From the IMG/VR virus record IMGVR_UViG_3300047560_001714, positions 32,001-96,000 of that record: a stretch of 64,000 nucleotides of DNA; one strand, given 5' to 3'. The stretch is from a virus. Of the stretch, positions 30,701 through 49,785 are shown piece by piece (position 1 is the first letter of the stretch; every line of letters starts with the position of its first letter). Under the pieces are notes generated by a model. The model saw nothing but the letters and a program-made list of their open reading frames with translations. It was not told the DNA's origin and did no database searches. Made by a program: the position numbers and the translations under genes.

Positions 30701-30707
30701 TACAACT

Positions 30708-30732
30708 AAGCTGCCTTCGGGCAGCTTTTTTT
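30708..30732 (+). terminator. Rho-independent terminator after tmRNA
   Basis: AAGCTGCC-ttcg-GGCAGCTT plus U-run. Confidence 0.9.
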
Positions 30733-30748
30733 ACATCAAATATCATAG

Positions 30749-36640: not shown

Positions 36641-36644
36641 AATA

Positions 36645-36708
36645 TAGGATGGTAACAGCAAATCTTTAGCCTTAGAATTCGGATCTAAACAGCCTAAACC
36701 CCATCCTG
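36645..36708 (+). ncRNA. CAGCA-stem element A (Leu-TAG-like loop)
   Basis: AGGATGG-TAACAGCAA...CCATCCT-G; CTTAGAA at 36671-77. Confidence 0.75.
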
Positions 36709-36718
36709 CTTTACAATC

Positions 36719-36777
36719 TAGGATACAACCAGCAACAATTACGCCAGACTGATAATCTGAAAATGTAACGTATCCTG
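36719..36777 (+). ncRNA. CAGCA-stem element B (Ile-GAT anticodon arm)
   Basis: AGGATAC-AACCAGCAA...GTATCCT-G; CAGA-CTGATAA-TCTG 36745-59. Confidence 0.8.
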
Positions 36778-36800
36778 TTTTTATAACTAATCGGACAACT

Positions 36801-37055
36801 ATGAAAGTAACAAAACTTGACAAACGATTTACATTATATCACAGGGGTTATATTCACGCTGTCATTGATGTTGAACAGTATGGTCCATTTATGGATCATG
36901 TTAAAACCTACTTTGCAGATAAAAAACATTTGTATGATTTTACCACCCAACGTAAACGAATTCATGGGTTGCCTTCTTACCGACGCAGTGTAGCTGTAAT
37001 CGGTTTTAGACGCGAAGAAGATTTAACTATGGTCCTATTATCTTTTAACAATTAA
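36801..37055 (+). CDS. Hypothetical protein, paralog of 37751-37990
   Basis: MKVTKLDKR...IGFRREEDLTMVLL versus MKIIKLDKR...IAFKREEHLTLALL. Confidence 0.65.
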   Translation: MKVTKLDKRFTLYHRGYIHAVIDVEQYGPFMDHVKTYFADKKHLYDFTTQRKRIHGLPSYRRSVAVIGFRREEDLTMVLLSFNN

Positions 37056-37099
37056 CGATTATTCCAGATTTATCAAAATAAAAACAATAAAGGTACAAT

Positions 37100-37327
37100 A
37101 TGAATAAAGAAGAATTACGCGAAATATTTTCAGAACAAACCACGAAATCGTCATCTGTGATGTTTATGATATCAACTTTAAAAGAAGTAATTGATGATAA
37201 ACAACATATTAGTTTACAAGTGTTAACCACTGAATCTGAAAAAATTGATGAACTGTTAGATAACGAATTGGTGGGATGTGAATTCGAATCATATGTGAAC
37301 GATATTCCAAAGTTCGTAAAACAATAA
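37100..37327 (+). CDS. Hypothetical protein
   Basis: ORF with AAGG SD. Confidence 0.5.
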   Translation: MNKEELREIFSEQTTKSSSVMFMISTLKEVIDDKQHISLQVLTTESEKIDELLDNELVGCEFESYVNDIPKFVKQ

Positions 37328-37442
37328 CAAATTATATGGATGAATACCGCATTTTTAGCTGGCTTACGATCGTTCATTATTAACAAATGTCATCGTCGGC
37401 TTGCAGACAAAAATCATCCAGCTTTAACCACAGGATAATATT

Positions 37443-37748
37443 ATGTTTTTTAATAAAGAATTACTAAACCAAATAGCGAAACTCACCACAATCGCTGAAA
37501 AGCTTCACGATGAAAATACAATGATGCGTAACACTTTTACAATGCTTGGGGAAACCATCAAAGAAATGGACGCTAAAATTAGCACATTAGAAGGTGAGGT
37601 TAAGAATTTAAGGACTCTGAATCAACTTGACCACCAGTACCCAATCGCAGTTAATAAGTGGGGAAGATGGAATTCTCACGGAGTTAAGAACCAAACGCCC
37701 CCAGATAAAGATTCTGGATGTAATCGTAAACACTGTGAATGTGACTAA
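37443..37748 (+). CDS. Coiled-coil hypothetical protein
   Basis: AGGA SD; heptad pattern. Confidence 0.5.
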   Translation: MFFNKELLNQIAKLTTIAEKLHDENTMMRNTFTMLGETIKEMDAKISTLEGEVKNLRTLNQLDHQYPIAVNKWGRWNSHGVKNQTPPDKDSGCNRKHCECD

Positions 37749-37750
37749 TA

Positions 37751-37990
37751 ATGAAAATTATTAAATTAGATAAACGCCATCGACTTTACTGTGAAGGATA
37801 TCGTTATGCAATTTCTAAAATTTATTTGGATAGAGGTATTGCAAAACATATCCGCAAGTATTATAATAAAGATTCGGAGATATTCAAGCAATATGCAACA
37901 ATCAATCGAACTTTTTTACCTTATGGATACATTGCATTTAAACGTGAAGAACATTTAACGCTGGCGTTGTTATCCTATGAAAATTATTAG
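37751..37990 (+). CDS. Hypothetical protein, paralog of 36801-37055
   Basis: Shared N- and C-terminal motifs. Confidence 0.65.
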   Translation: MKIIKLDKRHRLYCEGYRYAISKIYLDRGIAKHIRKYYNKDSEIFKQYATINRTFLPYGYIAFKREEHLTLALLSYENY

Positions 37991-38029
37991 TTGACAAATG
38001 AAAATGATGCTGTATAATAGCTAACAAAT

Positions 38030-38106
38030 GGCGGTGTAGCTCAGTTGGTTAGAGCAATCCTTTCATACGGGATAGGTCGTAGGTTCGATTCCTACTGTCG
38101 CCACCA
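38030..38106 (+). tRNA. tRNA with CAT anticodon (elongator Met or Ile2)
   Basis: ATCCT-TTCATAC-GGGAT, CCA; TTGACA/TATAAT promoter 37991-38018. Confidence 0.85.
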
Positions 38107-38114
38107 ACTAAATT

Positions 38115-38189
38115 GCCCTTATCGTTTAATGGATAGGACATGGGATTTCTACTCCCAGAATGGAGGTTCGATTCCTTCTAAGGGTGCCA
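38115..38189 (+). tRNA. tRNA-Arg(TCT)
   Basis: TGGGA-TTTCTAC-TCCCA, CCA. Confidence 0.9.
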
Positions 38190-38276
38190 GTGGTGCTAGA
38201 TATGGCCCACGTTAAAAACAGAATATATCAAACTGATTAGTTTGTGGTGTTAGTTGTGACCCACGTTAAAAACAGA
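38190..38276 (+). repeat. Two 33-nt direct repeats, each a GTGG/CCAC hairpin with an A-rich tail (preQ1-I-like)
   Basis: GTGGTGCTAGATATGGCCCACGTTAAAAACAGA (38190-222) and GTGGTGTTAGTTGTGACCCACGTTAAAAACAGA (38244-276). Confidence 0.7.
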
Positions 38277-38287
38277 TAACAATTTAT

Positions 38288-38362
38288 GCCCCTATAGCTC
38301 AATGGTAGAGCGTATTCCTCATAAGAATTTGGTTATAGGTTCGAACCCTGTTGGGGGCACCA
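38288..38362 (+). tRNA. tRNA with CAT anticodon (Ile2 or Met)
   Basis: GCCCCTA acceptor, ATTC-CTCATAA-GAAT, CCA. Confidence 0.88.
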
Positions 38363-38368
38363 ACAAAT

Positions 38369-38443
38369 ATATCGGTGGTGTAATGGTAACATACGGGCCT
38401 CCAAAGCCTTGAGATTAGGGTTCAAATCCTTACCGGTATGCCA
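38369..38443 (+). tRNA. tRNA-Trp(CCA)
   Basis: GGGC-CTCCAAA-GCCT, CCA. Confidence 0.9.
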
Positions 38444-38454
38444 AACAAAAAATA

Positions 38455-38544
38455 GGAAGAGTGGCAGAGTGGTTTAATGCAGCGGTCTTGAAAACCGCCG
38501 ACGGTTAGTCCCGTCCGTGAGTTCGAATCTCACTTCTTCCGCCA
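38455..38544 (+). tRNA. tRNA-Ser(TGA)
   Basis: GCGGT-CTTGAAA-ACCGC, long variable arm, CCA. Confidence 0.93.
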
Positions 38545-38548
38545 AATA

Positions 38549-38605
38549 TTGGATGCTAACAGCAATTACTTATAATTTCTTTTGGTGAAACTTAAATGCA
38601 TCCAG
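38549..38605 (+). ncRNA. CAGCA-stem element C (Gln-TTG anticodon arm)
   Basis: TGGATGC-TAACAGCAA...GCATCCA-G; TTTC-TTTTGGT-GAAA; near-identical to 45935-45990. Confidence 0.8.
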
Positions 38606-38615
38606 CTTAAATAAT

Positions 38616-38697
38616 GTTCTGTCGTATAACAGCTACATAGTAGTGAAATATGTCCCACACCACTGGGGAAGATATTGGTGAAAATCCATTCAGAACT
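38616..38697 (+). pseudogene. Degenerate tRNA-like element (Asp-like body, broken anticodon loop)
   Basis: GTTCTG/CAGAAC acceptor, TCCCA-caccac-TGGGG arm, GGTGAAAATCC T-arm-like, no CCA. Confidence 0.4.
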
Positions 38698-38726
38698 AAC
38701 ATTTCTAAACAACTTGAGAGATTATT

Positions 38727-38996
38727 ATGAAAAAATTACTTTTACTTGCTGGCCTAACTTTATTAGTAACTGGTTGTGCTGCAACCGGTGAATTAGATAC
38801 AGTTCCGGACCGTGTTAACAAACTAGAAGCCGCTGATAAGGTATTCAAAACCGATTTGAAAACTTTAACTGATAAAACCGCATCGTTGACAAATACACAA
38901 CAACAATGTATTAATCATTGTAAACTTTCTTCAAGTCGAATGAACAATTTCGATAGAAAACTTGATAACGCTTTCAACAAAGCACTAATTAAGTAA
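38727..38996 (+). CDS. Lpp/OprI-like outer-membrane lipoprotein
   Basis: Lipobox VTGC, coiled coil, C-terminal KLDNAFNKALIK ending in Lys. Confidence 0.65.
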   Translation: MKKLLLLAGLTLLVTGCAATGELDTVPDRVNKLEAADKVFKTDLKTLTDKTASLTNTQQQCINHCKLSSSRMNNFDRKLDNAFNKALIK

Positions 38997-39052
38997 TTTA
39001 AAAAAATCCTTGACAAATCTATAAACACACACTAGAATAACCTTTTATTTAA

Positions 39053-39265
39053 TTGGAGGTAAACACGATGTCTGAACAACTTAGTAGAATGATGTACACT
39101 GGCTTATTCCTTTTAATATTTGCGGTTATCTGTTCGACGTTTGGTGGATATGTCGTATATAACCACATGAGTAAAAATTATTTCCCAATCCAAGATAGCA
39201 ATATCGGTGGGTTTGTGTTTAGAAAAGGAAAAGTTTATTCATTAGAAGAAGTCAAGGATTTATAA
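39053..39265 (+). CDS. Small single-TM protein
   Basis: One TM segment; GGAGG SD (true start may be a few codons downstream). Confidence 0.5.
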   Translation: MEVNTMSEQLSRMMYTGLFLLIFAVICSTFGGYVVYNHMSKNYFPIQDSNIGGFVFRKGKVYSLEEVKDL

Positions 39266-39798
39266 TGAAAACTTTATCAACTATATTTTTTCTATTACTA
39301 TCACACTCAGCGTGTGCTGATGTGGTCAAAGTGATCGATACAAAGACCGGTAATATTGAATTAGTTAAAACACGTTCTTTCTCTCTAGCTAAAAATATAG
39401 ATAAAAAGATTTATTCAAAAGCTGACATAAATCGATTTGTCAAATTAGCATCAATTAAGAACAAGGTTGACGAAAAACTGATTCACGCTGTTATTAAGGC
39501 TGAAAGTAGTTATAGAAAAAATGCAATAAGTAAAGTAGGCGCAGCTGGTTTGATGCAACTCATCCCAGCAACTGCCACTAGATTTGGTGTGACCGACCGA
39601 TTTGATGTTAAACAGAATATTGACGGTGGTACCAAGTATCTTAAATTCCTACTAAATACGTTTAAGAACACACCACTTGCTCTGGCTGGTTATAATGCAG
39701 GGGAAAATGCAGTCATTAAATATAACTACAAAATTCCCAACTACCCAGAAACTAAAAATTATGTTAAAGTGGTGATGGAAAATTACGTAACGGAATAG
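39265..39798 (+). CDS. Soluble lytic transglycosylase (SLT domain)
   Basis: AVIKAESSY, SKVGAAGLMQLIPATA, NIDGGTKYL, ALAGYNAGE, ETKNYV. Confidence 0.93.
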   Translation: MKTLSTIFFLLLSHSACADVVKVIDTKTGNIELVKTRSFSLAKNIDKKIYSKADINRFVKLASIKNKVDEKLIHAVIKAESSYRKNAISKVGAAGLMQLIPATATRFGVTDRFDVKQNIDGGTKYLKFLLNTFKNTPLALAGYNAGENAVIKYNYKIPNYPETKNYVKVVMENYVTE

Positions 39799-39801
39799 AC
39801 T

Positions 39802-40563
39802 ATGATAACACTACTTAATATATATAAACAATCACTGTTAATGGCTAAACTAAGTTCATTGGCATATAATACTGACCAATCATTCAAAGATCTCGGATAT
39901 GATAGTAAGTATATATTTAGGAAAGGTTCCGAAGCATATGTTTTGTGGGATAACGACGATTTTATTATAGTTTGTCGTGGTACACAACCAAATAAGTTTG
40001 AAGACATTATAGCTGATATTAGACTCAATTTGGTACCTAGCTATTCTAACCGTGGTAGAGCGCACGCCGGATTTAAACACAGCGTCGATCTATTGTGGCC
40101 AGAACTGGAAAAACTTATTATTAAGTATGGTTCAAACAGAAAAATCTGGTGTACTGGACACAGTCTAGGTGCAGCAATGGCAACATTGATTACAGCAAGG
40201 TTGCCATTATTAAAGACCACTACCCCAACATTATTTACATTTGGTAGCCCTCGTGTTGGCGATGCTGATTTACACGATTATCTAATCGAGTTAGGTGTTG
40301 AACATCATAGATGGGTCAATAATGCGGATATGGTTACACGTAACCCAGTATTCCCATATCGTCATCACGGTATACTATATTATATGAATCATCATGGTGA
40401 ACTTGCCACGATGAGTATAATTAGAACCGCGATTGATAGAATTAAAGGTTTCATTACTGGTATTAAGAAAGGAAAAGTAAATTTCTTTGTTAATCACTTC
40501 ATTGAAAATTATATTAACAACATAGAAAAAATGGTTGATGATGAAAAAAATAGCAATTCCTAA
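39802..40563 (+). CDS. Class 3 lipase
   Basis: VCRGTQ, HAGF, TGHSLGAAMA, TFGSPRVG, VNNADMV. Confidence 0.92.
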   Translation: MITLLNIYKQSLLMAKLSSLAYNTDQSFKDLGYDSKYIFRKGSEAYVLWDNDDFIIVCRGTQPNKFEDIIADIRLNLVPSYSNRGRAHAGFKHSVDLLWPELEKLIIKYGSNRKIWCTGHSLGAAMATLITARLPLLKTTTPTLFTFGSPRVGDADLHDYLIELGVEHHRWVNNADMVTRNPVFPYRHHGILYYMNHHGELATMSIIRTAIDRIKGFITGIKKGKVNFFVNHFIENYINNIEKMVDDEKNSNS

Positions 40564-40816
40564 TTTTACGGATGATGAATCCGACCCTTTCTGGTGGGAT
40601 AAATTTGCGTCAGACATCGGGTATCTTGACATACAGGAATACCAATATGATGAATATGCAAAAATATTAACGAATAAAGCCAATAACATATTATTAGAAT
40701 ATAATGCCACATTTGAGTTATCACTAATGGCCGATCCAAGTGCTATTTGTGATTATGCAGTTATTACCTTTAAAGATGAAGCAAAGTATAATTGGTTTTT
40801 ACTAAAATACACATAA
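40535..40816 (+). CDS. Hypothetical protein
   Basis: C-terminal ITFKDEAKYNWFLLKY motif typical of a small phage family. Confidence 0.55.
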   Translation: MMMKKIAIPNFTDDESDPFWWDKFASDIGYLDIQEYQYDEYAKILTNKANNILLEYNATFELSLMADPSAICDYAVITFKDEAKYNWFLLKYT

Positions 40817-41490
40817 TGCGGTCGGATGAATATAAAAATAAAATAATAAATAACCTTTCATCACCGTATAGGATTGATAATTTTATAACAGAAACTGAGC
40901 GTAATTTATTAAAAGACTATTTTAACGATAGTTCACATAAAATAATTAAAAATACTGGACCTATTGTACTACATCTATCTGAATATGATTACCAGAATGA
41001 AGTACTGTATGGTATAAAAACTAGAGTTGAGCAATTATTAAATTCATCTGTATATTTTGGGCATTTTTTCTATACGAATCGACCACATATAATTCATAAT
41101 GATGATAGTTTAAGTATCAACGTGCCGTATAAAGGTATAAACATACCAATCGAAACGTGTGAGGAAACATCATTGTGTATTTTTGATCAATTCTACCTAG
41201 ATGGCCCATGTAAATTTTTTAATGGGTCAACTGATATACCAACCTATCATAATTTACAAAAATATGAATATTCTGGTGTTCAAGGATTGGTCGATGGTGA
41301 TTTTGATGAAAGTTTTCGTATAAAACATTTAAACCATTTAGAACCATCATGGTTACAAGGGCTTTCTATAAAAGAAATGATTCAGCAAACCATGAATTGT
41401 GGTATAGTATTTGATACAGTAAACTTACACTGTTCAACAAATTTTAAACAATCCAAACTTGGATTAAGTTTTTTTACACATTTGATATGA
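40792..41490 (+). CDS. Hypothetical protein (possible oxygenase-like fold)
   Basis: PHIIHND...NLHCS pattern; start probably near 40813. Confidence 0.55.
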   Translation: MVFTKIHIMRSDEYKNKIINNLSSPYRIDNFITETERNLLKDYFNDSSHKIIKNTGPIVLHLSEYDYQNEVLYGIKTRVEQLLNSSVYFGHFFYTNRPHIIHNDDSLSINVPYKGINIPIETCEETSLCIFDQFYLDGPCKFFNGSTDIPTYHNLQKYEYSGVQGLVDGDFDESFRIKHLNHLEPSWLQGLSIKEMIQQTMNCGIVFDTVNLHCSTNFKQSKLGLSFFTHLI

Positions 41491-42026
41491 TCAACAAAGA
41501 TGCGTTCTCGAATGGCCAAATTGATAGTAAACTATGGTTATGCCAAGAATTAGAAAATTTAGAATGGACGTCAGAACTAACGCAAATATACGGTGGATGG
41601 TATGGAATTACCGCATTTTTATTATTAAGTCGTGAAAAATTCAAAGTAACGCGCATAGAAAGTTATGATATTGACCCATCGTGTCAGGTTATTGCTGATA
41701 TGATTAATGAAAATTGGGTATTTAAAAATTGGCAATTTAAAGCACATACCGCTGATTGTAATAATATATTAACACAGCCAGATTTAATTATTAATACCTC
41801 AACTGAACATTTTGATGAAATGGACTGGTTTCATAACATAAAACCAGGTACACGAGTGATATTACAAGGCAACAATATGCCACATGACGATCACTTTATA
41901 CACAGTCAATCACTTAAAATGTTTATTGACAACTACCCATTAACTAGTATATACTATACTGGTGAATTAGATTTTAAATACCCATCTTGGGGATTCACTA
42001 GATACATGATTATCGGTGTGAAATAA
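41487..42026 (+). CDS. Class I SAM-dependent methyltransferase-like protein
   Basis: DAFSNGQIDSKLW, YGGWYG, SYDIDP, LIINTSTEH. Confidence 0.7.
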   Translation: MINKDAFSNGQIDSKLWLCQELENLEWTSELTQIYGGWYGITAFLLLSREKFKVTRIESYDIDPSCQVIADMINENWVFKNWQFKAHTADCNNILTQPDLIINTSTEHFDEMDWFHNIKPGTRVILQGNNMPHDDHFIHSQSLKMFIDNYPLTSIYYTGELDFKYPSWGFTRYMIIGVK

Positions 42027-42046
42027 TCATATCACTAAATATTGTT

Positions 42047-42502
42047 ATGTTAAATATATACACAAAAGAATTGATGGGTAGTTTTAAAAATATTAATGAT
42101 AAGATTGACAAATTAAACGAAATTGGTGTAACATATACACGGATTGATCTTGATGGTAGTTACATTGGTGAAATAAAGTTCTTGCATAATGTTCCTTATC
42201 ATGATACAATATCTGTAAATGAAAATACTGAGAATTATCCAGAATTAAGAAACAAGTTTAAACGTGAACATACTCATGATGACTTTGAAATGAGATTATT
42301 CACACACGGTACAGCATCTTTTTTCATAAATGCTAATGATTTAGTTTATGAATTAGTTGTTGGACCAGCTGATTTAATCAGTATACCAGCTAATACCAAA
42401 CATTGGTTCGATGCTGGTGACAACCCAGACTTTTCGGCAATTAGGTTTTTTACAGACGAAGATGGATGGATTGCAAAATATACTGATGAAAAAAATGCTT
42501 GA
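42047..42502 (+). CDS. mtnD: Acireductone dioxygenase (methionine salvage, cupin)
   Basis: EHTHDDFEMRLF, DLISIPANTKHWFDAG, AIRFFTDEDGWIA. Confidence 0.88.
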   Translation: MLNIYTKELMGSFKNINDKIDKLNEIGVTYTRIDLDGSYIGEIKFLHNVPYHDTISVNENTENYPELRNKFKREHTHDDFEMRLFTHGTASFFINANDLVYELVVGPADLISIPANTKHWFDAGDNPDFSAIRFFTDEDGWIAKYTDEKNA

Positions 42503-42562
42503 CAAGTTAAAAAGATAAGTGTATAATTTGTCACATATTGAAACAGTTCTTTAACAAATTAT

Positions 42563-42639
<77 letters not shown>

Positions 42640-42642
42640 ATA

Positions 42643-42775
42643 TAGGATCTTAACAGCATATTCTATTTGCCTTCTAAGCACGAGATGTGGGTTCGAATCC
42701 CACACGTAATTTGCGGACTAATGTAGCAAATAACGTTAGCTTAACGGGATAGAGCACGATAAAAATAAGATCCTG
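42643..42775 (+). ncRNA. CAGCA-stem element D: circularly permuted tRNA-Arg(TCT)-like body
   Basis: AGGATCT-TAACAGCAT...AGATCCT-G; order is anticodon arm, T-arm, loop-closed acceptor, D-arm. Confidence 0.85.
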
Positions 42776-42782
42776 ACCCTTA

Positions 42783-42900
42783 TAGGTTTCTAACAGCAAG
42801 TATTATGGGGATCGGAAATGGTAGGTTCGAGTCCTACTATGCAGTCGTATGATTGCATAAGGGCTACGGGTGGTGCCGCCGATTATAAAAATGAAACCTG
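42783..42900 (+). ncRNA. CAGCA-stem element E: YrlA-like permuted tRNA body
   Basis: AGGTTTC-TAACAGCAA...GAAACCT-G; ATCGG/CCGAT stem, T-arm GTAGG-TTCGAGT-CCTAC, 9-bp closed acceptor, D-like arm. Confidence 0.85.
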
Positions 42901-42909
42901 TTAATTTTA

Positions 42910-43025
42910 TGAATGCTAACAGCAATTTAATAACACCTGACGTGTCGTGAGTTCGAATCTCACCGTGTAAGTAATTACACGTAGCTCAGTTGGTAGAGCA
43001 TCTGGCCATAAAAAAATGCATTCAG
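42910..43025 (+). ncRNA. CAGCA-stem element F: YrlA-like permuted tRNA body
   Basis: TGAATGC-TAACAGCAA...GCATTCA-G; GTGAG-TTCGAAT-CTCAC, CGTGTAA-gtaa-TTACACG, canonical D-arm GCTCAGTTGGTAGAGC. Confidence 0.85.
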
Positions 43026-43034
43026 TATATATTT

Positions 43035-43096
43035 TGGTTGTTTTCAGCAATTTTAAAGATTCGATTTCTTATTTTTCCCAGGTGGGATACAACCAG
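43035..43096 (+). ncRNA. CAGCA-stem element G (T-loop mimic)
   Basis: TGGTTGT-TTTCAGCAA...ACAACCA-G; AAGA-TTCGATT-TCTT. Confidence 0.75.
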
Positions 43097-43343
43097 TAAC
43101 TTTTGACTTTTGGTAACACTATGTTTATACTTATTACTGCTGAATCAATTATATTATTATTAACAATATACTTTGGTTGGCGTATTTGGACAAAGATTTC
43201 AAACAAAATTACGGAGTTTTTCAAATGACTACTGATACATCGGATGATGAAGCTGTTTTAACAATGGACCCCGAAACTTTTGCAAAACTGTTTCGAGATG
43301 AACTTGAAAAGCTTAAACAAAAGCAGAACGACGCACAATAATT

Positions 43344-43430
43344 GGAAGGTTGCCAGAATGGTATTGGAGCGGATTGCTAATCCGTCAACGGGAAACCGTT
43401 GTATAGGTTCGAACCCTATACCTTCCGCCA
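43344..43430 (+). tRNA. tRNA-Ser(GCT)
   Basis: GCGGA-TTGCTAA-TCCGT, long variable arm, CCA. Confidence 0.93.
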
Positions 43431-43443
43431 ATTACCTATAAAT

Positions 43444-43510
43444 TGGATACATACAGCATATTTAAAATCACTGCAAATGACCTTTCCGGGTGATAACCGG
43501 AGGTATCCAG
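43444..43510 (+). ncRNA. CAGCA-stem element H (Cys-GCA anticodon arm)
   Basis: TGGATAC-ATACAGCAT...GTATCCA-G; TCA-CTGCAAA-TGA 43468-80. Confidence 0.8.
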
Positions 43511-43532
43511 ATTAAATTTTAAGGAGACATTT

Positions 43533-43760
43533 ATGAGAATAGTAGTCCCAGCGTACCACGTACCAGTTGTTGCAAATTATATTTCAAGAGCACCATATGT
43601 AATTTGCCCAAAAGATGCGTTGGTATTAAATCGTTATGATGTTGGAACACAAAAAGAAACTGCTGATGTATTATTCTATACATTATATGCAGGTGGTGGG
43701 ATACATATGCATCGCGTTAAAGATGTGTCTGAAATAAACACAATAAACGTATACGCATAA
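43533..43760 (+). CDS. Hypothetical protein
   Basis: AAGGAG SD directly after element H. Confidence 0.55.
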   Translation: MRIVVPAYHVPVVANYISRAPYVICPKDALVLNRYDVGTQKETADVLFYTLYAGGGIHMHRVKDVSEINTINVYA

Positions 43761-43784
43761 AAATTTAACAATAAAAAATAATAT

Positions 43785-43859
43785 TCCCTAATAGCTCAGT
43801 GGTAGAGCAGACGGCTGTTAACCGTCCGGTCGGTGGTTCGAGCCCATCTTAGGGAGCCA
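43785..43859 (+). tRNA. tRNA-Asn(GTT)
   Basis: GACGG-CTGTTAA-CCGTC, CCA. Confidence 0.95.
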
Positions 43860-43883
43860 ATTTAACATTAAAAAGGAAATGCT

Positions 43884-44036
43884 ATGAGCAATTGGCACGG
43901 TGGAAAGGGTTCTAAACAACGACCCTTTGATAGACAAAAATTTTCAGACAACTGGGACGCTATCTTTAAAAAAACCCCAGATAACGTCCAAGAAAATAAA
44001 CCAAACCAAGAAAAAGATGACAATGAAAAAAAATAA
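43884..44036 (+). CDS. Small conserved phage protein (MSNWHGGKGSKQRP..., 50 aa), not in the ORF track
   Basis: AAGGA SD; GGKGSxxRP...NWDAIF motif. Confidence 0.65.
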   Translation: MSNWHGGKGSKQRPFDRQKFSDNWDAIFKKTPDNVQENKPNQEKDDNEKK

Positions 44037-45540
44037 AATAGTAATTGTCGGGGGCGGTTCAGCTGGATGGATTACGTTATCATATTTATCAGCAACCACC
44101 GACGCTGAACTAGTATTAATCCACTCAAATGAAATCGATTCTATTGGAGTTGGCGAAAGCACAACACCAACTATTAAACATATTGCGGAAACCGTTGGCG
44201 TACCGGAATACGAATGGATGAAACAATCCAAAGCAACATTTAAATACGGTGTTGATTTCCATGACTTTAACAGTTTAGGTTCACGATGGGTACATACCTT
44301 TGATGATATGATACCACATCAGGCATTTACTAGACCATTATGCGATAATGGTAAAGAAGAATTTAAACGTGATTTGACTAGTGTTGATTATTTTTTACAT
44401 CATTATGGTAAAGATGTTTCATTATTTAACGAAACCCATGGACCACAAGAATACTTGATAAAAAATAAATTAAGTCCATTTAATAAAAATGGAATTAACA
44501 ATATAAACAAATTTCCAGGATATGGGTATCATGTTAATGCATTTGAATTTGGAAAATGTTTAAAAAATCACGTACCAGAAACCCGATATGAAGAAATAAA
44601 CGCAACCATAATTGAAGTTGTAGAAAATAATGATGGTATTGAGTACGTTGTATTAGACACTGGTGAAAAAATCTATGGTGATATATTCTTTGATTGCTCT
44701 GGGTTTACTAGGGTACTTATGAAAAATCTATCAACCTGGGATTCATATACTGAATTAGTAAATGACCGTGCAATATGGGGTGAAATTCATAATGTTACCT
44801 CAGACGAACCAGTTACGGGTGTATATGCGCAAGAATCAGGATGGATATGGACTATCCCAACATGGAACCAAATTGGTTCTGGGTATGTATATTCTAATAA
44901 ATTTAGTTCTGATGAACGGGCCGAAGAAGTAATTACAGACTTTTGGCGTGAACGTGGTTACAAATTTGTTAAAAGAAAACAAGTTGCGTTTGACGCCGGA
45001 AGATTAAACAATGTTACATTTAAAAATGTAATTAGCAATGGATTGGCCCAAAGTTTTATAGAACCATTGGAAGCCACCAGCTTAATGATTACGTGCGTAA
45101 CAGTACGCAGTTTTAGTGATTTATACAATAAGCATAAAATATGGAGTGCAAAAACTAGTTCAATTCATGATCGAATAATGAAACGGTTTATTGACCATAC
45201 TAAAAAGTTTGTTCTATATCATTATAGACTATCTGAAAGAATAGATACACCATATTGGCGGTCAGTTGGTAACGATCCAACCGCAGTGCAAGAGGTATCT
45301 GATTATATAGATATTTTGGCATCAAGTAAATGGGTTGGCAAAGGGGATACCCTATTGAATCAATGGAACTGGGTAAGTATGCTCCTTGGCTTTAATAAAA
45401 AATATACTAATAAATTAAAATCAGATGTTGACATTGACGATTATTTATTATATAATAAAACCTTAATTTATCATTACCAGTCATTAGTTGGTCAAAATAT
45501 TCCAATACTTGATTTGTTAAATAAAATTAATAATACTTGA
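44017..45540 (+). CDS. Flavin-dependent tryptophan halogenase family protein
   Basis: IVGGGSAGW, IGVGESTTP, FFDCSGF, GWIWTIP, FIEPLEATS. Confidence 0.9.
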   Translation: MTMKKNKIVIVGGGSAGWITLSYLSATTDAELVLIHSNEIDSIGVGESTTPTIKHIAETVGVPEYEWMKQSKATFKYGVDFHDFNSLGSRWVHTFDDMIPHQAFTRPLCDNGKEEFKRDLTSVDYFLHHYGKDVSLFNETHGPQEYLIKNKLSPFNKNGINNINKFPGYGYHVNAFEFGKCLKNHVPETRYEEINATIIEVVENNDGIEYVVLDTGEKIYGDIFFDCSGFTRVLMKNLSTWDSYTELVNDRAIWGEIHNVTSDEPVTGVYAQESGWIWTIPTWNQIGSGYVYSNKFSSDERAEEVITDFWRERGYKFVKRKQVAFDAGRLNNVTFKNVISNGLAQSFIEPLEATSLMITCVTVRSFSDLYNKHKIWSAKTSSIHDRIMKRFIDHTKKFVLYHYRLSERIDTPYWRSVGNDPTAVQEVSDYIDILASSKWVGKGDTLLNQWNWVSMLLGFNKKYTNKLKSDVDIDDYLLYNKTLIYHYQSLVGQNIPILDLLNKINNT

Positions 45541-45576
45541 CATTATAAATAAATACTGATATAATAGGTACATAAA

Positions 45577-45765
45577 ATGACAGTAGCTAGTAAAGCAAAC
45601 CGAAAAGCGAATCCGCTTAAAACTAAAAATGACAAAACACGTATTAACGTGTTAAGTGACAAACAGTTAGTATTAGCATTAGAAAAAGCAACACGCGGCC
45701 GTGATAAATCAAAAATCAGAAGTCGTATTGCATTTAAACTTAAAAATCATTCACAACAACCCTAG
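45577..45765 (+). CDS. Small basic hypothetical protein
   Basis: Behind TTGACA-17-TATAAT (45537-65). Confidence 0.55.
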   Translation: MTVASKANRKANPLKTKNDKTRINVLSDKQLVLALEKATRGRDKSKIRSRIAFKLKNHSQQP

Positions 45766-45774
45766 AGGTGTATT

Positions 45775-45921
45775 ATGGCAGTAGAAGTAAAAAAATGTAA
45801 TTGCAGTGGTTCACTAGCGGCTAAGTTCCAAGATAAAGAATATGGTCAAGGAATGCGCGTTATGAATCAAACCTTGAAAAAAGAATACAATTGTACAGTT
45901 TGTGGTGCAAAACACAAATAG
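45775..45921 (+). CDS. Small Zn-ribbon-like protein (48 aa), not in the ORF track
   Basis: GAGGTG SD; CNC...FQDKEYGQGMRV...CTVCG. Confidence 0.65.
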   Translation: MAVEVKKCNCSGSLAAKFQDKEYGQGMRVMNQTLKKEYNCTVCGAKHK

Positions 45922-45934
45922 TTACACCTAATTT

Positions 45935-45990
45935 TGGATGCTAACAGCAATTACTTATAATTTCTTTTGGTGAAAATAAAATGCATCCAG
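45935..45990 (+). ncRNA. CAGCA-stem element I (Gln-TTG anticodon arm), duplicate of element C
   Basis: TGGATGC-TAACAGCAA...GCATCCA-G. Confidence 0.8.
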
Positions 45991-46003
45991 CATAAATTAA
46001 TAT

Positions 46004-46079
46004 GCCACCGTAGCTCAATCGGTAGAGCGCCTCACTTGTAATGAGGATGTTGAGGGTTCGATTCCTTTCGGTGGCTCCA
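46004..46079 (+). tRNA. tRNA-Thr(TGT)
   Basis: CCTCA-CTTGTAA-TGAGG, CCA. Confidence 0.95.
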
Positions 46080-46102
46080 TTCACAATAACTTAAATGATC
46101 TT

Positions 46103-46309
46103 ATGACACCGGAACCAGACGATTTAGAAAACATTTTAAATAATCTTACTGATGACGATTTCGACAGCATCAACGAATCTATAAATTCTGACATTGACGA
46201 CGAGTTCGACGACGATGAGGAACTGTCGATTGAAGAAATGAAAGATATTTGGGGCGTAGACTTTGATGACGATGATTTAGACCCATTTGATATCCCTGGC
46301 GACAGGTGA
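46103..46309 (+). CDS. Very acidic small protein
   Basis: About 40% Asp/Glu by eye. Confidence 0.5.
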   Translation: MTPEPDDLENILNNLTDDDFDSINESINSDIDDEFDDDEELSIEEMKDIWGVDFDDDDLDPFDIPGDR

Positions 46310-46319
46310 TAACCACTTT

Positions 46320-46376
46320 TGGATACTTACAGCATATTAACTTCGACTTGAAACTTGAAAACAACTATGTATCCAG
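46320..46376 (+). ncRNA. CAGCA-stem element J (Ser-TGA-like loop)
   Basis: TGGATAC-TTACAGCAT...GTATCCA-G; CTTGAAA 46347-53 inside a TTCGA/TTGAA stem. Confidence 0.78.
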
Positions 46377-46400
46377 AATTAAACATGTAGTGTAATCTGA

Positions 46401-46471
46401 GCGGGATTGGTATATAGGTTGTGCCTTAGCCTTCCAAGCTAATGAAACGAGTTCGACTCTCGTATCCCGCT
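46401..46471 (+). tRNA. tRNA-Gly(TCC), no encoded CCA, acceptor extended by a 10-bp inverted repeat
   Basis: TTAGC-CTTCCAA-GCTAA; TGTAATCTGA/TCAGATTACA flanks. Confidence 0.88.
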
Positions 46472-46498
46472 CAGATTACAATCCGTGTAACTCTTACA

Positions 46499-46688
46499 AG
46501 AATAGTTTCAGCAACATACTACAAATAACTTACTGGAAATGGTATTTTATCGTGGGTTTTAGCCCAACAAAACCGATGGAATATCTAGTGTTGGTAGAAT
46601 ACCAAATAGGCTAGTAGAATACTAGATAGGATCTGGTTGGGTAGACCGAGACTGACTGAAAACTAATTTCACCCAAAAAGCTATTCTG
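46499..46688 (+). ncRNA. CAGCA-stem element K, large multi-hairpin insert
   Basis: AGAATAG-TTTCAGCAA...CTATTCT-G enclosing about 165 nt of hairpins. Confidence 0.7.
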
Positions 46689-46716
46689 TTTCCTTTAACC
46701 TTACAATGAGAAAAAT

Positions 46717-46989
46717 ATGTCTAATATTACAGCAAACCATATCTTAGTAGAAACGCTTGAACAAGCACAAGACTTACAACGCCAGTTATCGGAAGGCGCA
46801 TCATTCTCAGACTTAGCAAAATCTCACAGCAAATGTCCGAGTGGTACACGTGGCGGTGATTTAGGTTCATTTGGTAGAGGCCAAATGGTACCAGAATTTG
46901 AAAATGCCGCATTTGGCTTAGATGTCGGTGGGTTTAGTGAACCAGTACAAACACAATTTGGATACCATTTAATTAATCGCACCGCTTAA
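46717..46989 (+). CDS. ppiC: Parvulin-type peptidyl-prolyl isomerase
   Basis: ANHILV, FSDLAKSHSKCPS, GGDLGSFGRGQMVPEFE, TQFGYHLI. Confidence 0.95.
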   Translation: MSNITANHILVETLEQAQDLQRQLSEGASFSDLAKSHSKCPSGTRGGDLGSFGRGQMVPEFENAAFGLDVGGFSEPVQTQFGYHLINRTA

Positions 46990-46990
46990 T

Positions 46991-47278
46991 ATGGATTACA
47001 CTGTATTATATGATCGGGTTTTAATTAAACCGATTGAAGAAAACAAAACATTAAGTTCTGGTATTGTTTTAGTAGCAGAACAAAAAAGTACAACCACCAC
47101 TGGTACAGTAATTGCAATTGGTGATGGAAAACAGTATGATAATGGTAAGATAATCCCATTAACAGTCCAAGTTGATGATAATGTGTTATTCATGAAAAAT
47201 ACCGGTATCCCAACTAAATTAGATGGCGTTGAATATCTTATCTTGCGAGAATCAGAAATTCTTGGTATCATAGAATAA
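46991..47278 (+). CDS. groES: Co-chaperonin GroES
   Basis: LYDRVLIK, SSGIVL, GTVIAIGDG, VQVDDNVLF, ILRESEILG. Confidence 0.9.
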   Translation: MDYTVLYDRVLIKPIEENKTLSSGIVLVAEQKSTTTTGTVIAIGDGKQYDNGKIIPLTVQVDDNVLFMKNTGIPTKLDGVEYLILRESEILGIIE

Positions 47279-47291
47279 AATATAGTATTAA

Positions 47292-47387
47292 AGGTTAATT
47301 TCCGCATACCATTTTTCTCCAGAGATGTACAAGACCCCATTGATCAGTGGTGAGATATGAAAAATCTCAAATATGATCATTAACCTG
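47292..47387 (+). ncRNA. CAGCA-stem variant L (CCGCAT linker)
   Basis: AGGTTAA-TTTCCGCAT...TTAACCT-G; inner TGATCA/TGATCA and TGAGAT-atgaaaa-ATCTCA hairpins. Confidence 0.5.
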
Positions 47388-47402
47388 ATTACCCATACCA
47401 AT

Positions 47403-47808: not shown

Positions 47809-47850
47809 TTTTACTTGACAACCGCCAAAAACCTGGTATAATTACCCACA

Positions 47851-47887
47851 TAGATTAGATACAGCAACTATTTTTTACACTAAACTG
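47851..47887 (+). promoter_or_regulatory. Minimal CAGCA-stem element M in the 5' UTR of the DUF2828 gene
   Basis: T-AGATTAG-ATACAGCAA...CTAAACT-G directly before the AAAGGTGA SD; promoter TTGACA 47815-20 / TATAAT 47837-42. Confidence 0.7.
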
Positions 47888-47900
47888 AAAGGTGAATTAC

Positions 47901-49304
47901 ATGACATTAATTGCAGAAAAAACAACAACAACAACAACAAATGGTATGGCGGCGTTAAACACATCAACGACAGCCCTTACCGATTTATTCTTTAACATTG
48001 GTGCTATGCGTGGTAAAGATATTATTCCACAATTCACCAGTGCATTATCTGAAAATCGTGAGTTAGCATTACGAATTGCACTATGGTCGCGTGATGCTCG
48101 TGGTGGCGCTGGTGAAAGACAACTTTTCAGAGATATTCTAAATCATTTAGAAAACACCGATGTTTCCGCCGCCGAAGCATTAGCAAACCGCGTTGGTGAA
48201 TTGGGCAGATGGGATGATTTGTTTGTGTTTAAAACCAAACATATGAAAGAATTTGGGTTTGAGTTAATTAAACAAGCGTTGGCAGCTAAGAATGGATTGG
48301 CAGCTAAATGGACCCCACGTAAAGGACCAATTTCGGTTGAATTACGCAAATACTTGGGTTGGAGTCCAAAGCATTATCGTAAAACATTGGTGGCATTGAC
48401 ATCAGTGGTTGAAACCCAAATGTGTGCTAATGATTGGGATAACATCAATTTCAGCCACGTGCCATCTGTTGCTAGTGCTAGATACAAAAAAGCTTTCAAT
48501 AGACATACACCTAAGTTTGCTGAATATGTTAATGCACTGGTTTCTGGTGATACATCAGTTAAAGTCAATGCTGGTGCAATCTATCCATATGATGTTTTAA
48601 GTGCGTTGAAAGGTTATAATGTTGATTCAACGATTAAAAACCATGTTATTGCACAATGGGCCGCATTACCAAACTTTGTTGGTGACGCTAATATTTTACC
48701 ATTAGTTGACGTTAGTGGTTCTATGTCGTGTTCAGCGGGTGGTAAAAACGCATCTCTAACTTGTATGGATGTTGCAGTTTCCCTTGGGTTGTATCTTTCA
48801 GATAAAAACTTAGGTGAATTCAAAAACAAGTTTATTACGTTTCATGAAAAACCAGAATTGATAACACTTGAAGGGGATATTGTTCAACAGAACCAGCAAA
48901 TGCTAAGATCAAAATGGGGCATGAGTACAAACTTGGAATCAGCATTTAACTTGATTTTAAATTTAGCAACCAGTTGCAATGTTCGTAACGCAGATATGCC
49001 AGAAATTTTGTTGATTTTATCGGATATGCAATTTAACCAGGCGGTTACATCTCCAAGTGATACCGCAATGGAAATGATTGAACGTGCATATGCCGCTGCT
49101 GGATATTCTGTTCCTAAAATTGTATTCTGGAATTTAAATGCAAGTGGGAATGTCCCAGTAACATCGGATAAATCTGGCGCAGCATTGGTATCTGGGTTCT
49201 CACCATCAATTATGACTAGTTTATTATCTGCCGATATGTCTGAGTTTACACCATACGGCATTATGATTAAAACAATCATGAATGAACGGTATGACCACCA
49301 GTAA
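47901..49304 (+). CDS. DUF2828-family protein (TROVE/Ro60-like helical ring plus vWA domain)
   Basis: RDARGGAGER, LGRWDDL, LAAKWTPR, VPSVASARY, MIDAS LVDVSGSM, SDMQFN, IVFWNL, ALVSGFS. Confidence 0.85.
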   Translation: MTLIAEKTTTTTTNGMAALNTSTTALTDLFFNIGAMRGKDIIPQFTSALSENRELALRIALWSRDARGGAGERQLFRDILNHLENTDVSAAEALANRVGELGRWDDLFVFKTKHMKEFGFELIKQALAAKNGLAAKWTPRKGPISVELRKYLGWSPKHYRKTLVALTSVVETQMCANDWDNINFSHVPSVASARYKKAFNRHTPKFAEYVNALVSGDTSVKVNAGAIYPYDVLSALKGYNVDSTIKNHVIAQWAALPNFVGDANILPLVDVSGSMSCSAGGKNASLTCMDVAVSLGLYLSDKNLGEFKNKFITFHEKPELITLEGDIVQQNQQMLRSKWGMSTNLESAFNLILNLATSCNVRNADMPEILLILSDMQFNQAVTSPSDTAMEMIERAYAAAGYSVPKIVFWNLNASGNVPVTSDKSGAALVSGFSPSIMTSLLSADMSEFTPYGIMIKTIMNERYDHQ

Positions 49305-49309
49305 TAACA

Positions 49310-49336
49310 GTGGAGGGGTTTTACCCCTCCTTTTTT
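49310..49336 (+). terminator. Rho-independent terminator
   Basis: GGAGGGGT-ttt-ACCCCTCC plus U-run. Confidence 0.8.
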
Positions 49337-49647: not shown

Positions 49648-49785
49648 TTTTTAGGCAGTTTCGGCACTGTATAACAGTATTACTGCCTCGGCTGAAGCGA
49701 AATGACCGAAATGGGCTGCTCTCACGGGGTTTCTGTAGTTGTACCTGACACACGAGAACAACTACATCTATTTTATGTGGATAAT

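What the first reader, a model, noticed from the sequence alone, without database searches (positions are those of the whole stretch)
47815..47903. Cargo-less CAGCA stem at the SD of the DUF2828 gene suggests autoregulation
Seen: after TTGACA/TATAAT, the transcript should begin almost exactly with T-AGATTAG-ATACAGCAA-(12 nt)-CTAAACT-G, immediately followed by the AAAGGTGA SD and ATG 47901. This copy has no tRNA cargo and one stem mismatch. Element H likewise lies just upstream of the SD of ORF 43533. Inference: the protein binds its own leader and represses translation, titrated by the free CAGCA RNAs. This is the best sequence-level link between motif and protein.
Basis: partly seen in the sequence, partly recalled or inferred. 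Interest (0 to 1): 0.75.

Follow-up and report, generated by a model that had tools for sequence, protein, structure and literature searches.

The report
RNA handle before Ro60-like gene
A giant freshwater phage places a stripped-down copy of the RNA "handle" shared by its Y-RNA-like small RNAs at the very start of the messenger for its Ro60-shaped RNA-binding protein, touching the ribosome-binding site; most related phages do the same, so the protein probably binds its own messenger and limits its own synthesis, but no binding has been shown.

Summary
At 47851-47887 an 8-position helix (one A.A mismatch) encloses ATACAGCAA plus 12 nt. It lies between a perfect sigma-70 promoter (47815-47842) and the SD/ATG (47891/47901) of a DUF2828/DUF7788 gene.

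- **The protein is Ro60-shaped.** The model has pLDDT 92 and aligns to Xenopus Ro at Z 22.4.
- **The element is a real family member.** A covariance model built only from relatives' leaders finds it at E=0.007. It also finds seven of the window's other handles.
- **The helix covaries.** Five of 8 pairs show compensatory changes.
- **The position is conserved.** In 151 unique homologous phage loci, a handle ends 30 nt or less before the ATG in 77 of 85 loci at 50% protein identity or more. Chance expectation is 0.008 per locus.
- **Cargo-less leaders go with their own promoter** (12/19 versus 8/73).
- **Leader helices are weaker** than those of free handles.
- **The motif tracks the gene in distant phages.** It clusters beside the gene in Felix-O1-like, Listeria, Campylobacter, Klebsiella, Bacillus and mycobacterial phages, but there it is often downstream.

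Autoregulation is plausible (about 0.45) but untested. The main rival is a co-transcribed minimal Y-like RNA whose position reflects linkage and tight gene packing. This scan reached the same reading earlier on two other phage genomes.

The parts
47815..47842 (+). Sigma-70-type promoter: TTGACA (47815-47820), 16-nt spacer, TG-extended TATAAT (47837-47842). Expected transcription start about 47848-47850, 1-3 nt before the helix.
   Evidence: 12 of 12 consensus, TG before -10; sequence. The same promoter-then-handle spacing (-10 ends 9-13 nt before the arm) occurs in 12 of 19 cargo-less leaders of relatives.
47851..47858 (+). 5' arm of the handle helix (TAGATTAG).
   Evidence: Pairs with 47880-47887 at 7 of 8 positions (U.G, A-U, G-C, A.A, U-A, U-A, A-U, G-C). 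Homologous helix covaries in relatives.
47859..47879 (+). Loop: conserved ATACAGCAA (CAGCA 47862-47866), then a 12-nt U-rich stretch ending ACA. No cargo hairpin or tRNA-like domain.
   Evidence: CAGCA is invariant in 53 unique relatives' leaders and in all 19 short-class leaders.
47880..47887 (+). 3' arm (CTAAACT) plus the conserved terminal G.
   Evidence: The terminal C-W-G is invariant or nearly so.
47888..47903 (+). Shine-Dalgarno region AAAGGTGA (core GGTGA 47891-47895) starting directly after the handle, and the start codon ATG 47901.
   Evidence: In relatives the SD begins 0-4 nt after the terminal G, and in L019, L022, L028 and L153 that G is part of GGAG.
47901..49304 (+). Gene for a 467-aa Ro60-shaped protein (Pfam DUF2828 + DUF7788; PHROG 850 'RNA-binding protein'): a helical-repeat ring plus a vWA domain with an intact MIDAS motif.
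   Evidence: D270, S272, S274, T343, D375 invariant; pLDDT 92; top 13 Foldseek hits are all Ro60/TROVE; Z 22.4, 405 residues, rmsd 4.0 to 1yvr.
49312..49336 (+). Intrinsic-terminator-like hairpin plus T run, 8 nt after the stop codon. Promoter, handle, gene and terminator therefore look like one self-contained transcription unit.
36644..47388 (+). The other handle-bearing elements of the window, i.e. the presumed free RNAs.
- A 36644-36708, B 36718-36777, C 38547-38606.
- D 42642-42775, E 42782-42901 and F 42908-43024, with tRNA-like cargo.
- G 43033-43095, H 43442-43510, I 45932-45991, J 46317-46376.
- A long-cargo element 46499-46688, and a CCGCA variant 47291-47388.
   Evidence: R1 hits with E<0.01 for A, B, C, G, H, I, J; Rfam YrlA sub-threshold hits inside F, E=2.6e-5, and D, E=1.

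Best explanation
The element is a minimal, cargo-less copy of the 'handle' that closes this phage's Y-RNA-like small RNAs. The handle is a helix formed by the 5' and 3' ends, followed by NNN-CAGCAA. This copy forms the extreme 5' end of the mRNA of the Ro60-shaped protein.

The proposed mechanism runs as follows. The protein recognises the handle on the free Y-like RNAs. Once those are saturated, it also binds the weaker copy on its own leader. The ring-shaped protein of about 50 kDa then sits 3 nt from the Shine-Dalgarno sequence, blocks 30S binding, and so caps its own synthesis in proportion to the pool of partner RNAs. This is autogenous translational repression by ligand mimicry, as in thrS and the ribosomal-protein operons.

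Shown here:
- the element is a bona fide family member;
- the helix covaries;
- the position next to the SD is conserved;
- the protein has the Ro60 fold;
- motif and gene co-occur across distant phages.

Inferred:
- the protein binds the handle;
- the handle stays attached to the mRNA;
- binding represses translation;
- free RNAs titrate the protein.
For: 1. **Family membership.** R1, built without window sequence, hits 47849-47889 at E=0.0068. It also hits seven other handles in the window, and noise starts at E=1.
2. **RNA helix.** 95% of cells are paired, against 22-49% when the partners are slid. Five of 8 pairs show compensatory changes. RNAalifold finds the same helix independently. All 64 R1 hits in 93 further loci are on the gene strand.
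3. **Conserved position.** A handle ends 30 nt or less before the ATG, mostly 11-17 nt, in 92 of 151 unique loci. That is 59/62 at 60% identity or more and 18/23 at 50-60%. Chance is 0.0076 per locus. Stem sequence (20 haplotypes), cargo and upstream context all change while the position holds.
4. **Cargo is dispensable when the gene has its own promoter.** 12 of 19 short leaders have a near-consensus promoter that starts transcription at the helix, against 8 of 73 others. Fisher p=9e-6, though lineages are not independent.
5. **The SD begins 0-4 nt after the terminal G** and sometimes includes it.
6. **Leader helices are weaker than free ones.** 38/68 leaders have 1 or fewer G-C pairs in the 5-bp core, against 19/182 free handles. 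A lower-affinity operator would look like this.
7. **The protein is Ro60-shaped with conserved basic residues**. Solved Ro60 proteins bind the closing helix of Y RNAs (PMC4201824, PMC12135203).
8. **Motif and gene are linked in five whole cultured phage genomes** and in Bacillus phage Thrax1.
Against: - No binding or expression data exist.
- The window's own helix has an A.A mismatch and is not stable alone (MFE 0).
- Gaps between neighbouring features in this RNA cluster are all 6-24 nt. Once the gene order is given, abutting the SD needs no special explanation.
- Handles also precede other ORFs: about 22 of 386 strict handles, including a recurrent PPIase-GroES pair.
- In distant homologs the handles lie downstream or 70-90 nt upstream of the gene, so a leader copy is not required by the family.
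- Y RNAs encoded just upstream of Ro60 genes and processed from one precursor are already known in M. smegmatis, D. radiodurans and Thermus phage phiLo, with no claim of autoregulation (PMC4201824, PMC12135203).
Confidence: 0.45

Rival explanations
1. Linkage and compaction only. The leader element is the last, smallest Y-like RNA gene of the cluster, comparable to YrlB lying between YrlA and rsr in M. smegmatis. It is co-transcribed with its partner protein's gene and cut off. Its contact with the SD reflects tight phage gene packing, not regulation.
For: - Y RNAs lie immediately upstream of Ro60 genes and are processed from a common precursor in known systems (PMC4201824; phiLo Yrl1/Yrl2 in PMC12135203).
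- All inter-feature gaps in this cluster are 6-24 nt.
- 13 leaders carry a full tRNA-like cargo and 60 carry a hairpin cargo, so they look like ordinary family members.
- Handles also abut other ORFs.
Against: - A 37-nt cargo-less, marginally stable hairpin has no module other than the handle, yet CAGCA and pairing are maintained in 19 short leaders at 45-69% protein identity.
- Those short leaders are the ones given a promoter that starts at the helix.
- No terminator or recognisable processing signal separates the handle from the SD.
- Leader helices differ systematically from free ones.
Confidence: 0.3
2. Positive cis role. The 5'-terminal helix, alone or clamped by the Ro60-like ring, protects the mRNA's 5' end from 5'-end-dependent decay. 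Alternatively it loads newly made protein onto RNA in cis. Either way it raises expression rather than lowering it.
For: - The predicted transcription start lies 1-3 nt before the helix, here and in 12 short-class relatives.
- 5'-terminal stem-loops are established mRNA stabilisers in bacteria (general knowledge).
- The SD itself is left unpaired in all folds.
Against: - The helix is too weak to protect on its own.
- Most leaders (72 of 92) are not promoter-proximal and lie inside longer transcripts.
- A bulky protein 0-4 nt from the SD is more likely to hinder 30S binding than to help it.
Confidence: 0.13
3. The handle is a processing or recognition signal for a nuclease or another factor, not for the Ro60-like protein. 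In the leader it only marks where upstream RNAs are separated from the mRNA.
For: - Handles flank tRNAs and other RNAs inside polycistronic clusters.
- No experiment links the protein to the motif.
Against: - In five complete cultured phage genomes the only R1 hits lie within 2 kb of the Ro60-like gene, on its strand.
- The same holds across hosts of four phyla. This fits a dedicated partner protein better than a host nuclease.
- The architecture, a closing helix plus a conserved internal-loop motif, parallels the Ro60 site on Y RNAs (PMC12135203).
Confidence: 0.07
4. In this particular genome the copy is a decaying remnant with no function. It carries a stem mismatch, ATA instead of TAA, and no stable fold.
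For: - Lowest R1 score among the cargo-less copies apart from H.
- MFE 0 kcal/mol.
Against: - CAGCAA, the G-C at position 3, the U-A at position 6 and the terminal CUG are all intact.
- A mismatch at the same helix position occurs in the L003/L005/L017 leaders, which keep everything else.
- The promoter, SD and spacing are all optimal.
Confidence: 0.05

Closest known systems
Ro60 (Rsr) with Y RNAs encoded next to its gene: M. smegmatis YrlA/YrlB, D. radiodurans Yrn1/Yrn2, Salmonella rsr-yrlBA, Thermus phage phiLo Ro60 with Yrl1/Yrl2 (PMC4201824, PMC12135203; Rfam RF02553)
   Same: - A ring-shaped helical-repeat plus vWA/MIDAS protein (Z 22.4 to 1yvr).
- Partner RNAs on the same strand within a few kb.
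- A closing helix formed by the 5' and 3' ends, with a short conserved motif in the adjoining loop.
- Some partners carry a T-arm / acceptor-like stem / D-arm module that gives a sub-threshold YrlA hit.
- Small RNAs lie directly upstream of the protein gene.
   Different: - The protein matches Pfam DUF2828/DUF7788, not TROVE. The sequence profile reaches Ro60 only at E=0.014, over the MIDAS region.
- The loop motif is CAGCA(A), not GNCGAA/CGAA.
- The leader copy has no second module.
- The copy abuts the SD, and no autoregulatory role has been described for Ro60. A search of the held library found no such report among the ten listed titles and abstracts; none was opened.
Autogenous translational repression by ligand mimicry: E. 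coli thrS operator (tRNA-Thr anticodon-arm mimic just upstream of the SD), ribosomal-protein operators, phage T4 RegA/gp32, MS2 coat protein operator (general knowledge)
   Same: - An RNA-binding protein's own mRNA carries, at or next to the ribosome-binding site, a copy of the structure the protein binds on its main RNA ligand.
- The copy is weaker than the main ligands.
- The free ligand pool would set the level of repression.
   Different: - Nothing has been measured here.
- The protein family is different, and the operator lies at the extreme 5' end of the transcript.
- In many relatives the 'operator' is a complete small-RNA-like element with cargo.
5'-terminal stabilising stem-loops of bacterial and phage mRNAs, such as the ompA 5' UTR (general knowledge)
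   Same: A helix starts within 1-3 nt of the predicted 5' end of the mRNA.
   Different: - The helix is weak.
- It carries a sequence motif shared with a family of small RNAs.
- In most relatives it is not at a transcript's 5' end.

Membership tests
CAGCA-handle Y-like RNA family of DUF2828-encoding phages (defined here; not in Rfam) | 7-8 bp closing helix with W-A/G-C at the base, a conserved G-C at position 3 and U-A at position 6, and a terminal C-W-G | tested here: met
   TAGATTAG / CTAAACTG pairs at 7 of 8 positions, with G-C and U-A in place and terminal CUG. R1 gives 26.1 bits, E=0.0068.
CAGCA-handle Y-like RNA family of DUF2828-encoding phages (defined here; not in Rfam) | CAGCA(A) three nucleotides after the 5' arm, on the transcribed strand | tested here: met
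   ATA-CAGCAA at 47859-47867. The motif is invariant in relatives.
CAGCA-handle Y-like RNA family of DUF2828-encoding phages (defined here; not in Rfam) | Location within a few kb of a DUF2828/DUF7788 gene on the same strand | tested here: met
   The element ends 13 nt before the gene's ATG. The rule holds.
Rfam YrlA (RF02553) / canonical bacterial Y RNA | tRNA-like module (T-arm, acceptor-like stem, D-arm) | tested here: not met
   Only 12 nt lie between CAGCAA and the 3' arm. No YrlA hit falls at 47850-47890 at E<=5. Elements D and F of the window do give partial hits.
Rfam YrlA (RF02553) / canonical bacterial Y RNA | GNCGAA(N)G Ro60-binding motif near the 5' end (PMC4201824) | tested here: not met
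   The motif here is ACAGCAA. The YrlA model matched only positions 27-81 of 114 in D and F, not the stem part.
Ro60 / TROVE protein family (for the downstream gene) | Ring of helical repeats followed by a vWA domain with a MIDAS motif | tested here: met
   AF2 model pLDDT 92. Foldseek's top 13 hits are all Ro60/TROVE. VIA-align gives Z 22.4, 405 aa, rmsd 4.0 to 1yvr, against Z about 10 for vWA-only hits. DxSxS...T...D is invariant.
Ro60 / TROVE protein family (for the downstream gene) | Match to the Pfam TROVE model PF05731 | tested here: not met
   No PF05731 match in the protein or in the 188-kb contig. The family profile reaches Ro60 chains only at E=0.014-0.18.
Ro60 / TROVE protein family (for the downstream gene) | Binds Y RNA through the closing helix | not testable with these tools
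   Only co-occurrence of motif and gene is available.
Autogenous translational operator (thrS / ribosomal-protein type) | The operator resembles the protein's main RNA ligand | tested here: met
   The same model detects the leader and the free handles, provided the handles are the protein's ligands, which is inferred.
Autogenous translational operator (thrS / ribosomal-protein type) | The operator overlaps or abuts the ribosome-binding site | tested here: met
   The core SD (GGTGA, 47891-47895) begins 3 nt after the helix here (the purine-rich AAAGGTGA run abuts it); the range is 0-4 nt in relatives, and the terminal G is sometimes part of the SD.
Autogenous translational operator (thrS / ribosomal-protein type) | The protein binds the operator and represses translation | not testable with these tools
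   Needs EMSA, toeprinting and reporter assays.

The most novel reading that the evidence does not exclude
The CAGCA handle is an address tag read by a phage Ro60-like ring. By placing a weakened tag on its own mRNA, and perhaps on the PPIase-GroES and small-ORF messages that also follow handles, the phage would run a small post-transcriptional regulon. Its set-point would be the pool of tRNA-mimic and anticodon-mimic Y-like RNAs. This would be the first feedback circuit described for any Ro60-type protein.
Probability: 0.2. Interest if true: 0.75.

Novelty: new variant of a known kind. Interest (0 to 1): 0.6.

Why it matters
Ro60 and Y RNAs are conserved from bacteria to humans, yet how their relative amounts are set is unclear, and no feedback on Ro60 synthesis has been described.

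Here a very large phage family of Ro60-shaped proteins carries its partner-RNA handle on the protein's own messenger. The family has 6,090 clusters at 50% identity and homologs in 710 cultured phage records, including Felix-O1-like, Listeria, Campylobacter and mycobacterial phages.

This gives a simple hypothesis that can be tested with EMSA, toeprinting and reporters, using cultured phages. It also defines the minimal RNA likely to be sufficient for protein binding, which would help structural work. The handle motif itself is absent from Rfam, and in GenBank records it is often buried under spurious 'hypothetical protein' calls.

Tried and rejected
- **Chance match:** rejected (R1 E=0.0068 window-wide; conserved in relatives).
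- **DNA-level operator or inverted repeat:** rejected. The arms covary freely instead of keeping a sequence. A U.G wobble closes most helices. All 64 model hits are on the gene strand.
- **Terminator or attenuator:** rejected. The T run is inside the loop, not after the stem, and the terminator scan finds none there.
- **Known Rfam family:** none covers 47850-47890, even at E<=5.
- **Canonical TROVE protein elsewhere on the contig:** none found.
- **Thermodynamic support:** folding this copy alone or with its mRNA start gave none (z-scores +0.6 to +1.0). The structure rests on comparative evidence only.
- **Alternative hairpin:** one that presents CAGCAA as a hexaloop is predicted for L035 (shown by fold; L036 and L043 share the same sequence features), with a related but shifted hairpin in L038, but it is not general.
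- **Pattern scan noise:** my scan is noisy when lenient (306 reverse-strand against 730 forward hits). I therefore used only the 30-nt leader window (chance 0.0076 per locus), plus a CAGCA-only, fixed-spacer scan for the leader-versus-free comparison (24 reverse against 254 forward).
- **Bacterial and MAG contigs**: these gave a weak signal with this pattern. Many instead show T-arm-containing elements ending in ...CUUG just upstream, so the handle diverges there.
- **Literature:** a search for Ro60 autoregulation returned nothing relevant among the top hits. The Annual Review on bacterial Ro60 was not held.
Full report
**What is there**

The window is part of a 188-kb IMG/VR viral contig. It carries 17 tRNA genes, a permuted tmRNA and many small intergenic elements.

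- TTGACA at 47815-47820, a 16-nt spacer, and a TG-extended TATAAT at 47837-47842, 12 of 12 consensus;
- an expected transcription start about 47848-47850;
- TAGATTAG at 47851-47858;
- ATACAGCAA at 47859-47867;
- twelve U-rich nucleotides at 47868-47879;
- CTAAACTG at 47880-47887;
- AAAGGTGA at 47888-47895, and ATG at 47901.

The arms pair at 7 of 8 positions, with one A.A mismatch. A terminator-like hairpin with a T run follows the stop codon at 49312-49336. Promoter, handle, gene and terminator therefore look like one compact transcription unit.

**The element belongs to a family**

At least twelve other elements on the same strand between 36.6 and 47.4 kb share the architecture. Each has a closing helix made by the two ends, three nucleotides, CAGCA(A), a variable 'cargo', then the complementary arm ending C-W-G.

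Three of them (D, E, F) enclose a T-arm, an acceptor-like stem and a D-arm. Two give sub-threshold hits to Rfam YrlA, restricted to the tRNA-like part of that model.

To test the leader copy without circularity, I built covariance model R1 from 44 leader elements of related phages only. Run over the whole window with filters off, it finds 47849-47889 at 26.1 bits, E=0.0068. It finds seven other handles at E<0.01, and the next hit is at E=1.

**It is an RNA helix under selection**

All 77 related viral loci that had enough upstream sequence, out of the 80 kept (63-70% protein identity; 53 unique upstream sequences), carry a handle directly before the gene.
- On the 44-row alignment, 95% of cells pair, against 22-49% when the partners are slid. 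Five of eight pairs show changes on both sides; for example position 4 is A-U, G-C or U-A.
- RNAalifold predicts the same helix without being told it.
- Twenty arm haplotypes occur.
- All 64 R1 hits in 93 further loci lie on the gene's strand.

**The protein is Ro60-shaped**

Pfam sees only DUF2828 and DUF7788, and PHROG 850 is named 'RNA-binding protein'. No TROVE model match exists on the contig.

An AlphaFold model from an 84-sequence alignment has pLDDT 92.
- Foldseek's first 13 PDB hits are all Ro60/TROVE, including the Thermus phage phiLo protein.
- VIA-align gives Z 22.4 over 405 residues to Xenopus Ro, well above vWA-only hits at Z about 10.
- The MIDAS residues are invariant.
- The sequence profile reaches Ro60 only marginally.

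The protein is therefore a remote, fold-level relative. The family is huge: 6,090 clusters at 50% identity and homologs in 710 cultured phage records.

**The motif follows the gene across phyla**

Two to four handles lie within about 2.5 kb of the gene on the same strand in six unrelated cultured phages:
- a Felix-O1-like coliphage;
- a Klebsiella phage;
- mycobacteriophage Finnry;
- a Campylobacter Fletchervirus;
- a Listeria Pecentumvirus;
- Bacillus phage Thrax1.

In the five complete genomes searched, these are the only R1 hits at E<=0.1. This is the best available evidence that the protein and the handle are partners. It parallels Ro60 with Y RNAs, where a closing helix plus a short loop motif (GNCGAA/CGAA) is the binding site (PMC4201824, PMC12135203).

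**How conserved is the leader position?**

I pooled 151 unique loci. A handle ends 30 nt or less before the ATG, mostly 11-17 nt, at these rates:

| Protein identity to the window's protein | Loci with a leader handle |
|---|---|
| 60% or more | 59 of 62 |
| 50-60% | 18 of 23 |
| 40-50% | 14 of 48 |
| below 40% | 1 of 18 |

Chance expectation is 0.0076 per locus.

Variant motifs occur in some clades: CCGCA, and UCAACA in Salmonella phage 7t3. The counts for distant clades are therefore underestimates.

The SD starts 0-4 nt after the terminal G. In several lineages that G is part of GGAG.

Distant clades place the handles downstream of the gene, or 70-90 nt upstream.

**Evidence for a cis role rather than mere adjacency**

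Leaders fall into three classes: short (19, no cargo, like the window's), medium (60, one hairpin) and long (13, full tRNA-like cargo).
- Twelve of the 19 short leaders have a near-consensus sigma-70 promoter whose -10 box ends 9-13 nt before the arm, so the transcript starts at the helix. Only 8 of 73 others do. Fisher p=9e-6, though lineages are not independent.
- When the gene acquires its own promoter, the cargo is lost but the handle, its CAGCA and its pairing are kept.
- Leader helices are weaker than free ones. 38/68 leaders have 1 or fewer G-C pairs in the 5-bp core, against 19/182 free handles. Cargo is also shorter, median 32 against 84 nt.

Both features are what a lower-affinity operator would show.

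**Evidence for caution**

- The window's copy does not fold stably on its own.
- Every gap in this RNA cluster is 6-24 nt, so touching the SD follows from gene order plus compaction.
- Handles also precede other ORFs. Examples are the PPIase-GroES pair at 46717-47278, recurrent in relatives, and ORFs at 43533 and 36801.
- Known Ro60 loci already place small Y RNAs just upstream of the gene and process them from a precursor, with no autoregulation claimed (PMC4201824, PMC12135203).
- No expression or binding data could be obtained.

**Verdict**

With high confidence (about 0.9), the element is a minimal copy of the partner-RNA handle, placed at the 5' end of the Ro60-like gene's transcript.

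I put about 0.45 on its acting as an autogenous translational operator titrated by the free handle RNAs. That figure roughly multiplies three inferred steps: the protein binds handles (about 0.8), the handle stays on the mRNA (about 0.7), and binding 3 nt from the SD represses (about 0.7-0.8).

The main rival, at about 0.3, is a co-transcribed minimal Y-like RNA with no regulatory meaning.

Two earlier follow-ups of this scan on other phage genomes (e1-5750612, e1-5710865) reached the same reading. My tests here were independent of them.

Noticed in passing
window 46499-46688, then 46717-47278: A long-cargo handle (AAGAATAG ... CTATTCTG, about 190 nt) ends 28 nt before a parvulin-type PPIase ORF (90 aa), which is followed by a GroES/Cpn10 ORF. 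The same handle-then-90-aa-ORF junction recurs in L003, L005, L006, L009, L017 and L107.
   Followed up: partly
window 30306-30749: Phage-encoded permuted tmRNA (Rfam tmRNA_permuted and beta_tmRNA; the ARAGORN tag peptide ends in ...DLDVMAA).
   Followed up: no
window 34034-34177: Full-length hit to the Rfam Polynucleobacter-1 RNA motif (53.6 bits, above gathering). The motif has no known function and here sits in a phage.
   Followed up: no
window 43900-45540: A 546-aa tryptophan-halogenase-family (flavin-dependent) ORF (Pfam E=2e-84) is embedded in the tRNA / Y-like RNA cluster.
   Followed up: no
window 49702-50169: A PTH2-type peptidyl-tRNA hydrolase gene lies just downstream of the Ro60-like gene. 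Relatives carry RtcB or Rnl RNA ligases nearby (L087 in 7t3, L091 in the Listeria phage), so the neighbourhood is themed on tRNA and RNA repair.
   Followed up: no
L086:3926-4189 (Mycobacterium phage Finnry) and L090:2784-2923 (Campylobacter phage F367): Handle elements in GenBank phage records are overlain by annotated 'hypothetical protein' CDSs (Finnry gp55, F367_017). These CDSs are probably spurious calls over non-coding RNA genes.
   Followed up: partly
L093-L105 leaders; L087:2890-2960 (Salmonella phage 7t3); L311, L320, L327 and L342 (gut Firmicutes contigs): The loop motif and 3' end of the handle vary by clade: CCGCA instead of CAGCA, UCAACA in 7t3, and a ...CUUG 3' end in gut Firmicutes contigs. 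A single motif model will therefore miss parts of the family.
   Followed up: partly
L035:341-360 (also L036, L043): In some short leaders an alternative 7-bp hairpin (UUAGUAA / UUACUAA) is predicted that would present CAGCAA as a hexaloop and compete with the closing helix. This could be a switch or a coincidence.
   Followed up: no
window 47922-47942: The Ro60-like ORF begins with a run of seven ACA codons (poly-Thr, residues 8-14). This run is absent from the family consensus and looks like a recent trinucleotide expansion.
   Followed up: no
window 47291-47388: A CCGCA-variant handle (AAGGTTAAT ... ATTAACCTG) with about 75 nt of cargo lies directly upstream of tRNA-Cys. R1 does not detect it.
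   Followed up: partly
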